From Escherichia coli (GTDB taxonomy: Bacteria > Pseudomonadota > Gammaproteobacteria > Enterobacterales > Enterobacteriaceae), in assembly GCF_003334385.1 (NCBI RefSeq), contig NZ_QOWN01000005.1: DNA of 64,000 nucleotides; one strand, 5' to 3'. The stretch's first letter is position 1. Every line of letters begins with the position of its first letter. This document shows positions 43,832 to 44,734 of this stretch, piece by piece. Both the position numbers and the translations under genes were made by a program. The notes under the pieces are model-generated. The model was not told where the DNA came from and made no database searches. It worked only from the letters and a program-made list of their open reading frames with translations.

Positions 43832-44734
43832 TTAAATAAGGTTAATTACCTTATCAATCTCAGCAAGAGGTAAATTTGCCATCTCTGCAACGTCTTCCCG
43901 AGACATTCCTTTACTCAGAAGACGCTGGGCGAATTCCTGACTTACTTCCTGTCTTCCCTGCTGAATCCCCTTCTCAATCCCTTTCTCTTCAAACCACTGC
44001 GCCAGCGTCATCATAGACTCCCCTCCCGTTTCCCTGTCTCTCAACACACCGTAAAACAAATCCGCTTGTTCAGTATGACCGCGTTGCAGCATATAGTTTT
44101 GCATGGCAACTAACTGACTTCCGCTAGTGTACCCTTCGTCGATCAGCGTGACCAGTTGCTCAAGCAATAACATTAAGTCGCGCTGGCGAATATGTTTTTG
44201 CAGTAGTTCGAGAATCGCAATCCGCCGATGTTGCATGATTTCGTCATCCGGTGTGATGGTGATATCCACCAGCGGGAAAGGACTGTTATAGACGCGTCGC
44301 GCCAGCTCCGGCGAGTAAAACATATCAAACCAGCACATTGATAGCGGATAAGGTGTGGCCTCGCCCTGATAAAACAGTATCGGCACCACCAGCGGCAGCT
44401 TATCGTGGTCAGCCTCCAGATGCCGGTGCATGGCGGCTATAGAATAACGCATCATGCGAAAGGCCATTTTCTTATCCGGCTTGCTTTGGTGTTCAATCAC
44501 AACATGCAGATAACCGGGATTGCCCTGCATTTGCACGGAATAGAGCACGTCCGTGCTGTGTCCTTTCAGGCTCTCTTCAATGAAACTCCCCGACTCTAAA
44601 TGAAGCGTGTTGAGGTCACAAAGTTCGCGTAATTCCACTGGCAAATGTATCTCCAGAAAGTCGCGAGCCGTCTCCGCATGCATTAAAAATTGTTTAAATA
44701 CCGCGTCATGCGGTGTGGTACTCGGTGCATCCAT
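43832..44734 (-). CDS. rpnC: Recombination-promoting nuclease RpnC, transposase-like PDDEXK family (300 aa)
   Basis: MDAPSTTPHDAVFKQFLMHAETARDFLEIHLPVELREL...; YhgA-like architecture. Confidence 0.9.
   Translation of the reverse strand: MDAPSTTPHDAVFKQFLMHAETARDFLEIHLPVELRELCDLNTLHLESGSFIEESLKGHSTDVLYSVQMQGNPGYLHVVIEHQSKPDKKMAFRMMRYSIAAMHRHLEADHDKLPLVVPILFYQGEATPYPLSMCWFDMFYSPELARRVYNSPFPLVDITITPDDEIMQHRRIAILELLQKHIRQRDLMLLLEQLVTLIDEGYTSGSQLVAMQNYMLQRGHTEQADLFYGVLRDRETGGESMMTLAQWFEEKGIEKGIQQGRQEVSQEFAQRLLSKGMSREDVAEMANLPLAEIDKVINLI

What the first reader, a model, noticed from the sequence alone, without database searches (positions are those of the whole stretch)
43832..44734. Transposase-like PDDEXK nuclease gene (rpnC) splitting the pantothenate genes
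panB-panC and panD are separated by an oppositely oriented YhgA/Rpn-family gene, a domesticated transposase-like nuclease, with about 270 bp of divergent intergenic DNA on the panD side. No terminal inverted repeats or target-site duplication are visible, so it looks like an old, fixed insertion rather than an active element.
Basis: partly seen in the sequence, partly recalled or inferred. Interest (0 to 1): 0.35.

Follow-up and report, generated by a model that had tools for sequence, protein, structure and literature searches.

The report
rpnC nuclease-antitoxin gene inside pan locus
This is the well-studied E. coli K-12 gene rpnC (yadD), a toxic DNA-cutting enzyme that carries its own small antidote protein inside the same gene and sits between the vitamin B5 genes panC and panD; it is real but already described in the literature.

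Summary
ORF 43832-44734 (-) lies between panB-panC (+) and panD (+), 273 bp from panD, with no terminal inverted repeats. Window 42202-47202 is identical to E. coli K-12 MG1655 144500-149500, where this ORF is rpnC/yadD (b0132).

The protein matches Pfam PF04754 (3e-87) and TIGR01784. It keeps every RpnA residue shown by mutation to matter.

"Domesticated transposase" is out of date. Published work shows Rpn proteins are toxic PD-(D/E)XK endonucleases. Each gene also makes a small antitoxin, RpnS, from an internal start.

Both features are visible here. There is a GGGAGGGGAG ribosome site before ATG-ATG at 44014/44011. A 12-nt repeat (KGIE/KGIQ) follows, and its copy number varies among E. coli alleles of 290-314 aa.

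The gene sits at this site in 5417 of 5426 complete E. coli genomes and in other Escherichia species. A 64%-identical relative sits there in Pseudocitrobacter. The site is empty in 72 of 80 Enterobacteriaceae species loci, plus an eroded relic in Salmonella arizonae.

The insert (about 43756-44912) replaced the panC stop codon. It left a conserved promoter-like element and hairpin attached to panD.

Verdict: already known, low interest.

The parts
43832..44734 (-). rpnC (yadD, b0132), full-length product RpnC-L of 300 aa: a PD-(D/E)XK recombination-promoting nuclease, the toxin
   Evidence: ORF. Identical to the K-12 annotation. PF04754 at 3e-87 and TIGR01784 at 298 bits.
44114..44716 (-). Transposase_31 / YhgA-like domain (residues 7-207), which holds the nuclease core. 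D10, D62, E81, Q83 and R93 correspond to RpnA D11, D63, E82, Q84 and R94. The PDDEI motif is at residues 162-166.
   Evidence: Pfam coordinates. Residue mapping by global alignment to K-12 RpnA. These residues are invariant in an 11-sequence alignment. RpnA mutational data are in PMC5350276.
43832..44014 (-). Gene within the gene: rpnC-S, a 59-60 aa in-frame antitoxin starting at M241/M242 (ATG ATG at 44014/44011)
   Evidence: In-frame ATG-ATG preceded by GGGAGGGGAG. M242 aligns with RpnA M244, the experimentally confirmed internal start (PMC10400941). RpnC-S protein was detected by SPA tag, and ribosome profiling was reported, in the same paper.
44017..44027 (-). Shine-Dalgarno-like GGGAGGGGAG for the internal start
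   Evidence: Read directly from the sequence.
43949..43984 (-). 12-nt (4-aa) repeat tract encoding KGIE-KGIQ-QGRQ in the first helix of RpnC-S. Its copy number varies among strains.
   Evidence: TRF finds period 12, 2.7 copies, at 43956-43987, and the exact units are at 43984-43961. Sampled alleles are 290, 294, 298, 300, 304, 310 and 314 aa and differ mainly by KGIE or EVRQ units. One allele differs from K-12 only by one extra AAAGGGATTGAG unit (L086).
43763..43793 (+). Hairpin with a 12-bp stem between the convergent panC and rpnC genes. It looks like a terminator for panBC and was brought in with the insert.
   Evidence: (I10). Folding energy is -18.8 kcal/mol. A homologous AACTGGCGC...GCGCCAGT hairpin occurs in the Pseudocitrobacter insert.
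43756..44912 (.). Approximate extent of DNA that is absent from empty-site species. It comprises the new panC stop codon, the hairpin, rpnC, and ~178 bp upstream of rpnC.
   Evidence: Junctions were found by comparison with Citrobacter, Klebsiella, Buttiauxella and others.
44913..44941 (+). Ancestral promoter-like element TAGACA-N17-AATACT upstream of panD. In empty-site species its TAG is the panC stop codon.
   Evidence: GGCAATACTG is invariant in 37 species.
44959..44978 (+). Conserved hairpin in the ancestral spacer, the presumed panD leader
   Evidence: Folding energy is -12.1 kcal/mol. Seven of 10 predicted pairs show compensatory changes across 37 species.
42907..43758 (+). panC, the left flank
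   Evidence: TIGR00018, 439 bits
45008..45388 (+). panD, the right flank
   Evidence: TIGR00223, 228 bits

Best explanation
The ORF is E. coli K-12 rpnC (yadD), a single-gene toxin-antitoxin module of the Rpn (YhgA-like, PF04754) family.

The full-length product, RpnC-L, is a Mg-dependent PD-(D/E)XK DNA endonuclease. Its overexpression damages DNA, induces the SOS response and modestly stimulates RecA-independent recombination.

A second product, RpnC-S (about 59 aa), is translated in the same frame from an internal ATG at 44011/44014 behind its own ribosome-binding site. According to published dRNA-seq it also has an internal promoter. RpnC-S is the C-terminal helical bundle of RpnC-L. It pairs with the matching domain in RpnC-L and blocks the nuclease.

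A 12-nt repeat in the first helix expands and contracts between strains, and it sets which S partner fits which L partner.

By analogy with plasmid RpnP2, the module probably acts as an antiphage or abortive-infection-type defence. That role has not been shown for RpnC itself.

The gene is not a mobile element now. It arrived as a ~1.16-kb segment inserted exactly at the end of panC, upstream of an independent panD promoter-like element. This placement would explain why it does not disturb pantothenate synthesis, and it has been inherited vertically throughout Escherichia.
For: Identity: the window matches K-12 exactly and the annotation there is rpnC. PF04754 matches at 3e-87, and TIGR01784 scores 298 bits against a cut-off of 52.

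Catalytic residues: D10, D62, E81, Q83, R93 and the PDDEI motif are conserved. Their RpnA equivalents abolish or alter activity when mutated (PMC5350276).

RpnC phenotypes: recombination rose 2.9-fold, CFU fell 59%, and SOS was induced (PMC5350276).

Internal start: GGGAGGGGAG-N3-ATGATG aligns with the proven RpnA internal start at M244. RpnC-S and RpnC-L were both detected by tagging, and RpnC-S blocks RpnC-L only when the KGIE repeat numbers match (PMC10400941).

Repeat variation, reproduced here: ten alleles of 290-314 aa, including K-12 plus or minus one KGIE unit. The rpnC-S segment is the most diverged part of the locus. In 1326 genomes its best match is only 80-90% identical, whereas no genome falls below 90% for panC or for the N-terminal domain.

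Not an IS: there are no terminal inverted repeats, and the median is one copy per genome.

Age and site: the gene is at the pan site in 5417 of 5426 E. coli genomes and in 4 Escherichia-type loci (three named Escherichia species and one E. coli-like contig). The site is empty in 72 of 80 Enterobacteriaceae species loci.

The panD promoter-like element and hairpin are retained on the panD side of the insert.
Against: An antiphage role has been shown only for plasmid-borne RpnP2, not for chromosomal RpnC. PADLOC 2023 has no model that recognises the protein.

The internal promoter could not be confirmed from sequence. The best sigma-70-like match upstream of the internal start scores only 8 of 12.

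RpnC is one of the weaker paralogues in every assay.

The neighbourhood holds fimbrial, pan and ABC-transporter genes and is not a defence island.

The structure model was too poor to confirm the fold independently (pLDDT 53).
Confidence: 0.93

Rival explanations
1. It is an insertion sequence or a decayed transposase gene, as the first reader and the Pfam name imply. On this view RpnC once catalysed its own transposition into the pan operon and is now an inactive relic.
For: The Pfam family is named 'Putative transposase, YhgA-like', and the top NCBIfam model is titled 'ISNCY family transposase', although the score is below its cut-off. K-12 has five paralogues. The gene interrupts a conserved operon-like cluster that is contiguous in most relatives.
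Against: There are no terminal inverted repeats and no target-site duplication at the mapped junctions. The median is one copy per genome, at one fixed site. The catalytic fold is PD-(D/E)XK, and no autonomous transposase with that fold is known (PMC10400941). The ORF is intact with all catalytic residues, and the protein is active and detectable in vivo. So it is not a relic.
Confidence: 0.03
2. It is a homing-endonuclease-like selfish gene. On this view RpnC-type nucleases recognise the panC/panD junction and have inserted their own gene there more than once, which is the 'two independent insertions' model of Kingston et al.
For: Two divergent RpnC-type lineages occupy the same site in the same orientation, at 64% aa identity, while PanC is 90% and PanD 98% identical. 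A third occupant, an RpnS-like relic, lies at the site in Salmonella arizonae. Kingston et al. favour this reading.
Against: Purified RpnA has little or no sequence specificity.

The Escherichia-type and Pseudocitrobacter-type inserts share their architecture. Both have the left hairpin AACTGGCGC...GCGCCAGT and the right junction CAGATGAG|TAGACA. The distance from the rpn start to the panD start is 271-274 bp in both. Their upstream regions are weakly but significantly alignable, 54-56% identity with z of 4.3-5.7.

That pattern is more simply explained by one ancestral insertion with fast divergence and losses, or by allele replacement through recombination in the pan flanks. Other insert types also use this spacer, such as Kluyvera and Raoultella extra DNA and ERIC elements. 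The site may therefore simply be permissive.
Confidence: 0.04

Closest known systems
E. coli K-12 RpnC / YadD (b0132), as described by Kingston et al. 2017 (PMC5350276) and Zhong et al. 2023 (PMC10400941)
   Same: The sequence and genomic position are identical. The internal start, the KGIE repeat and the pan-locus context are the same as published.
   Different: Nothing differs; this is the same gene.
RpnA (YhgA), the biochemically and structurally characterised exemplar; the RpnA-S crystal structure is PDB 7TH0
   Same: The two proteins are 49% identical overall and 57% in the N-terminal domain. All mutationally defined residues are conserved, and the internal start lies at the equivalent position.
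   Different: The C-terminal S domain is only 26% identical. RpnC-S does not hit 7TH0 by sequence. RpnC carries KGIE-type repeats that the K-12 RpnA allele lacks, and it shows weaker toxicity and SOS induction.
Type II toxin-antitoxin systems used as antiphage defences
   Same: A toxic enzyme is neutralised by direct binding of a small helical antitoxin protein. The module shows rapid diversification and patchy phylogenetic distribution.
   Different: Toxin and antitoxin are encoded in the same reading frame of one gene rather than as a two-gene operon, so they must co-evolve. The trigger that releases the toxin is unknown.
Classical insertion sequences (for example ISNCY or IS1)
   Same: It is a single-gene unit that interrupts a conserved gene cluster, and the genome holds several paralogues.
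   Different: It has no terminal inverted repeats, no target-site duplication, no DDE or serine/tyrosine recombinase fold, no evidence of recent movement, and variable ends.

Membership tests
Rpn / YhgA-like family (Pfam PF04754, TIGR01784, COG5464) | Significant match to the family profile over the whole Transposase_31 domain | tested here: met
   PF04754 at E = 3e-87 covers model positions 1-201 of 203. TIGR01784 scores 298.4 bits against a cut-off of 52.1.
Rpn / YhgA-like family (Pfam PF04754, TIGR01784, COG5464) | PD-(D/E)XK active-site residues (RpnA D11, D63, E82, Q84, R94) and the conserved PDDEI motif | tested here: met
   RpnC has D10, D62, E81, Q83, R93 and P162-I166 by alignment. 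These positions are invariant in 11 sequences.
Rpn / YhgA-like family (Pfam PF04754, TIGR01784, COG5464) | PD-(D/E)XK alpha-beta-beta-beta-alpha-beta fold of the N-terminal core | tested here: inconclusive
   The AF2 model has pLDDT 53. The order of secondary-structure elements fits (H20-30, E39-46, E63-69, E75-82, H90-107, E115-121), but confidence is too low for a fold search.
Rpn / YhgA-like family (Pfam PF04754, TIGR01784, COG5464) | DNA endonuclease activity | not testable with these tools
   The literature reports in vivo SOS induction and toxicity for RpnC, and in vitro cleavage only for RpnA.
RpnL/RpnS intragenic toxin-antitoxin (Zhong et al. 2023) | In-frame internal start with a ribosome-binding site that yields a small C-terminal protein | tested here: met
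   GGGAGGGGAG precedes ATG-ATG at 44014/44011, giving a 59-60 aa product. The position is equivalent to RpnA M244. Detection of the protein is published.
RpnL/RpnS intragenic toxin-antitoxin (Zhong et al. 2023) | Four-amino-acid repeats, 8-20 residues after the internal Met, that vary in number between strains | tested here: met
   KGIE/KGIQ/QGRQ begins 10 residues after M242. The sampled alleles show from none to five extra KGIE-type units, or EVRQ-type units instead.
RpnL/RpnS intragenic toxin-antitoxin (Zhong et al. 2023) | Internal promoter that drives a short transcript | tested here: inconclusive
   The consensus scan finds only an 8 of 12 match, TGGTCA-17-TACACT, with its -10 ending at 44126. 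A transcription start from dRNA-seq is asserted in the paper.
RpnL/RpnS intragenic toxin-antitoxin (Zhong et al. 2023) | Protection against phage | not testable with these tools
   This has been shown only for plasmid RpnP2. There is no PADLOC model hit.
Insertion sequence / autonomous transposon | Terminal inverted repeats at the ends of the inserted segment | tested here: not met
   No inverted-repeat pair has arms near 43756 and 44912. The junction sequences are unrelated.
Insertion sequence / autonomous transposon | Target-site duplication | tested here: not met
   The left junction is GCTGGCG|TAATAC and the right is CAGATGAG|TAGACA, compared with the empty site GCG-CAG-TAGACA. No duplicated bases flank the insert.
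Insertion sequence / autonomous transposon | Multiple near-identical copies or variable locations within a species | tested here: not met
   The median is 1 place per genome for the N-terminal domain. In 5417 of 5426 genomes the panC-rpnC-panD arrangement is intact in one place.

The most novel reading that the evidence does not exclude
The panC/panD junction may be a specific landing site. RpnC-type genes, or their relics, occupy exactly the same position in Escherichia, Pseudocitrobacter/UBA5654 and Salmonella. In each case they replace the panC stop codon that overlaps the -35 of a conserved panD promoter-like element. If RpnC-L, through its variable C-terminal domain, recognises and cuts this junction, it would be the first Rpn protein with a defined target. 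It would also revive a homing-type mobility model. My data lean the other way: shared insert boundaries and alignable private flanks suggest one origin. They do not exclude the homing reading.
Probability: 0.06. Interest if true: 0.5.

Novelty: already known. Interest (0 to 1): 0.1.

Why it matters
As a discovery it matters little. The gene, its odd position inside the pan cluster, its nuclease nature, its intragenic antitoxin, its repeat hypervariability and its distribution at the pan site are all published (Kingston 2017; Zhong 2023).

The check still has some value. It corrects the 'transposase' label. It shows that raw sequence alone carries the gene-within-a-gene signature, namely an internal SD-ATG followed by a 12-nt repeat. 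It also gives a clean structural account of why an insertion in the middle of an essential biosynthetic cluster is tolerated: panD keeps its own conserved promoter-like element and leader hairpin.

Open questions remain for the field. What releases RpnC-L from RpnC-S? Does chromosomal RpnC defend against any phage? How do the dodecamer repeats expand?

Tried and rejected
1. Structure prediction of RpnC from an 11-sequence alignment gave mean pLDDT 53 and pTM 0.38. I did not run a fold search on it because matches to such a model would be meaningless.

2. A PDB sequence search with RpnC, and with RpnC-S alone, found no Rpn structure. Only RpnA itself finds 7TH0, the RpnA-S structure. The weak hit of RpnC-S to a designed 'CAP repeat' protein (8VD6) is a helix-turn-helix-like resemblance and not homology evidence.

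3. PADLOC returned only marginal hits to the C-terminal helix-turn-helix-like stretch (E about 2e-3). I rejected these.

4. An Rfam scan of 43700-45100 gave nothing near any gathering score.

5. Sigma-70 consensus scans for the rpnC promoter and for the internal rpnC-S promoter gave only 8 of 12 matches. Neither promoter could be located from sequence.

6. A search for relics of rpn in the larger empty-site spacers (Kluyvera, 262-290 bp; Raoultella, about 210-230 bp) found nothing significant. Only Salmonella arizonae gave a hit.

7. I ran no further search on the Salmonella relic. Kingston et al. Text S1 already describes a Salmonella/FGI57 yadD cluster and erosion of the gene.

Full report
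**1. Observation**

A 300-codon ORF lies at 43832..44734 on the minus strand. It is flanked by three genes identified with NCBIfam equivalog models well above their cut-offs:
- panB, 42101-42895 (+)
- panC, 42907-43758 (+)
- panD, 45008-45388 (+)

The spacer to panD is 273 bp and the spacer to panC is 73 bp. Window 42202-47202 is an exact match to the reverse complement of E. coli K-12 MG1655 NC_000913.3 144500-149500. There the ORF is annotated rpnC, b0132, 'recombination-promoting nuclease RpnC'.

**2. What the protein is**

Pfam PF04754 (Transposase_31, 'Putative transposase, YhgA-like') matches residues 7-207 at E = 3e-87. TIGR01784 (Rpn family) scores 298 bits against a cut-off of 52.

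A global alignment to K-12 RpnA maps the RpnA residues whose mutation abolishes or changes activity onto RpnC (mutational data in PMC5350276):

| RpnA | RpnC |
|---|---|
| D11 | D10 |
| D63 | D62 |
| E82 | E81 |
| Q84 | Q83 |
| R94 | R93 |
| PDDEI motif | residues 162-166 |

All of these are invariant in an alignment of K-12 paralogues, E. coli alleles and the Pseudocitrobacter relatives.

Kingston et al. showed the effects of RpnC overexpression. RecA-independent recombination rose 2.9-fold, the viability of recA cells fell by 59%, and an SOS reporter was induced.

An AF2 model from my shallow alignment was too poor to add an independent fold test (pLDDT 53).

**3.

Codons 241-242 are ATG ATG (window 44014/44011, minus strand). 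They are immediately preceded by GGGAGGGGAG. M242 aligns with RpnA M244, the internal initiation codon proven by mutation in Zhong et al. 2023.

That paper reports several things for rpnC:
- ribosome-profiling signals at the internal start;
- SPA-tag detection of both RpnC-S and RpnC-L;
- a functional test in which RpnC-S blocks RpnC-L-dependent SOS induction only when both carry the same number of 'KGIE' repeats.

In the window the repeat is visible as a period-12 tract, AAAGGGATTGAG / AAGGGGATTCAG, at 43984-43961.

I reproduced the population variation from complete E. coli genomes. Ten sampled alleles are 290, 294, 298, 300, 304, 310 and 314 aa long. They differ almost only in this tract. 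Examples are K-12 plus one KGIE, K-12 minus one KGIE, K-12 plus four units, and an alternative EVRQ series.

Across 5426 genomes the rpnC-S segment is the most diverged part of the locus. In 1326 genomes the best match is only 80-90% identical. No genome falls below 90% for panC or for the N-terminal domain of rpnC.

Several strains carry an extra free-standing copy, rpnC-Ss, between panC and rpnC (L082, L088, L089, L091). This too is already published. The K-12 window lacks it.

**4. Is it a mobile element?**

No inverted repeat has arms at the two ends of the inserted DNA. The mapped junctions share no duplicated bases.

The N-terminal domain occurs at a median of one place per genome. The panC-rpnC-panD arrangement is intact in one piece in 5417 of 5426 complete E. 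coli genomes.

Zhong et al. reach the same conclusion for the whole family and consider a transposase function highly unlikely. The 'domesticated transposase' wording therefore rests on a historical family name and not on evidence.

**5. Synteny**

I fetched the panC neighbourhood from 80 Enterobacteriaceae species genomes and located panB, panC, rpnC, panD and yadE in each.

| Group | State of the panC-panD site |
|---|---|
| E. whittamii, Escherichia sp., E. albertii, and an E. coli-like contig | rpnC present; 93-95% aa identity in the three full-length copies, and a partial match (82% over residues 189-298) at the end of the E. coli-like contig |
| Two Pseudocitrobacter and MAG UBA5654 | RpnC-type gene at 63-65% aa identity, same position and orientation, although PanC is about 90% and PanD 96-98% identical |
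| 72 other loci (Citrobacter, Klebsiella, Raoultella, Enterobacter, Kluyvera and others) | no rpn; gap of 34-290 bp |
| Salmonella arizonae | no intact rpn; gap of 418 bp holding an RpnS-like relic |

A profile of Rpn C-terminal tails, searched against the six-frame translation of all gaps, gave one significant hit in the empty sites. It is a frameshifted RpnS-like relic on the minus strand of the Salmonella arizonae gap (E = 3.4e-11).

All of this agrees with Kingston et al. Text S1. That text describes an Escherichia cluster and a Salmonella/FGI57 cluster of yadD, erosion of the gene, and duplication of its C-terminal part.

**6. Anatomy of the insertion**

In empty-site species panC ends …GCN-CAG-TAG, and the TAG is the first half of TAGACA. 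This is the -35-like hexamer of a TAGACA-N17-AATACT element.

In E. coli panC ends …GCG-TAA. The ancestral …GAG-TAGACA reappears at 44910-44918. The insert is therefore about 43756-44912, roughly 1.16 kb. It contains a new stop codon, a hairpin with a 12-bp stem (43763-43793, -18.8 kcal/mol), rpnC itself, and ~178 bp upstream of rpnC.

The remaining 95 bp (44913-45007) is the ancestral spacer. It carries two conserved features:
- the promoter-like element, with GGCAATACTG invariant in 37 species;
- a hairpin at 44959-44978 in which 7 of 10 pairs show compensatory changes.

No Rfam family matches this region.

My inference is that panD has its own promoter in most enterics, so an insertion just upstream of it is neutral for pantothenate synthesis. 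I have not shown that the element is a promoter.

**7. One insertion or two?**

Kingston et al. favour two independent insertions. I note four shared features of the Escherichia-type and Pseudocitrobacter-type inserts:
- the left hairpin, AACTGGCGC…GCGCCAGT;
- the right junction, CAGATGAG|TAGACA;
- the distance from the rpn start to the panD start, 271-274 bp;
- weak but significant similarity in the private upstream 139 nt (54-56% identity, z of 4.3-5.7 against shuffles).

This fits a single ancestral segment that diverged quickly and was lost repeatedly, or allele replacement by recombination in the flanks. It fits these at least as well as independent site-specific insertion. The point is minor, and the authors list the alternative themselves.

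**8. Mechanism, and what is shown versus inferred**

- Shown here from sequence: family membership, catalytic residues, the internal SD-ATG, the repeat and its allelic variation, the absence of IS hallmarks, the insertion boundaries, and the taxonomic distribution.
- Shown in the literature: RpnC toxicity and SOS induction, synthesis of RpnC-S, and repeat-matched neutralisation.
- Inferred by analogy: nuclease chemistry (demonstrated for RpnA), an L2S2-type complex (RpnA), and antiphage function (plasmid RpnP2 only).
- Unknown: the trigger that frees RpnC-L.

**9. Verdict**

This is a real feature, correctly located and correctly named. It is already fully described in the literature, and its 'transposase' interpretation has been superseded. 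Interest is low.

Noticed in passing
window 44913-45007 (+): The ancestral panC-panD spacer carries a TAGACA-N17-AATACT promoter-like element, with GGCAATACTG invariant in 37 species. In species without rpnC, the TAG of this element is the panC stop codon. A hairpin follows at 44959-44978, and 7 of its 10 pairs show compensatory changes. No Rfam family matches.
   Followed up: partly
L023 4850-5267 (Salmonella enterica subsp. arizonae, panC-panD gap): A frameshifted RpnS-like relic lies on the minus strand (…GIQESKREALGKAK / EERRNIARCMLECGMTREAAAQITTLTDDEIGQIIRWR*). It scores E = 3.4e-11 against a profile of Rpn tails. Like the Pseudocitrobacter RpnC-type proteins, it ends in WR*.
   Followed up: partly
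L005 / L009 / L007 versus window 43759-43831 and 44735-44912: The Escherichia-type and Pseudocitrobacter-type rpnC inserts share their boundary motifs, the 271-274 bp distance to panD, and weakly alignable private flanks. This hints at a single origin rather than the two independent insertions proposed in 2017.
   Followed up: partly
L083 560-857 (E. coli strain 132; the O157:H7 strain L090 has the same ~300-bp panC-rpnC gap) and L004 ~2620-2840 (E. albertii): An ERIC/IRU-like repeat of about 220 bp is inserted between the panC stop codon and the hairpin. It is absent from the K-12 window. I recognised it by eye from its consensus-like sequence and did not test it formally.
   Followed up: no
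window 42907-43758 (panC): panC is unusually diverged within E. coli for a core gene, at 90-95% identity in 844 complete genomes. This suggests elevated recombination or divergence across the locus, which lies next to the variable yad fimbrial operon.
   Followed up: no
E. coli genomes records, e.g. NZ_OZ392440.1 (127 kb, labelled plasmid): Nineteen records labelled as plasmids hold panC and the N-terminal domain of rpnC. They are probably chromosome fragments or mislabelled replicons.
   Followed up: no
L092 763-1690 (E. coli 2012C-4221) and H1 NZ_CM194533.1: Rare disrupted alleles exist: a frameshifted rpnC pseudogene, and an IS1 insertion within the panC-rpnC-panD segment. Loss of the gene is therefore tolerated.
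   Followed up: no
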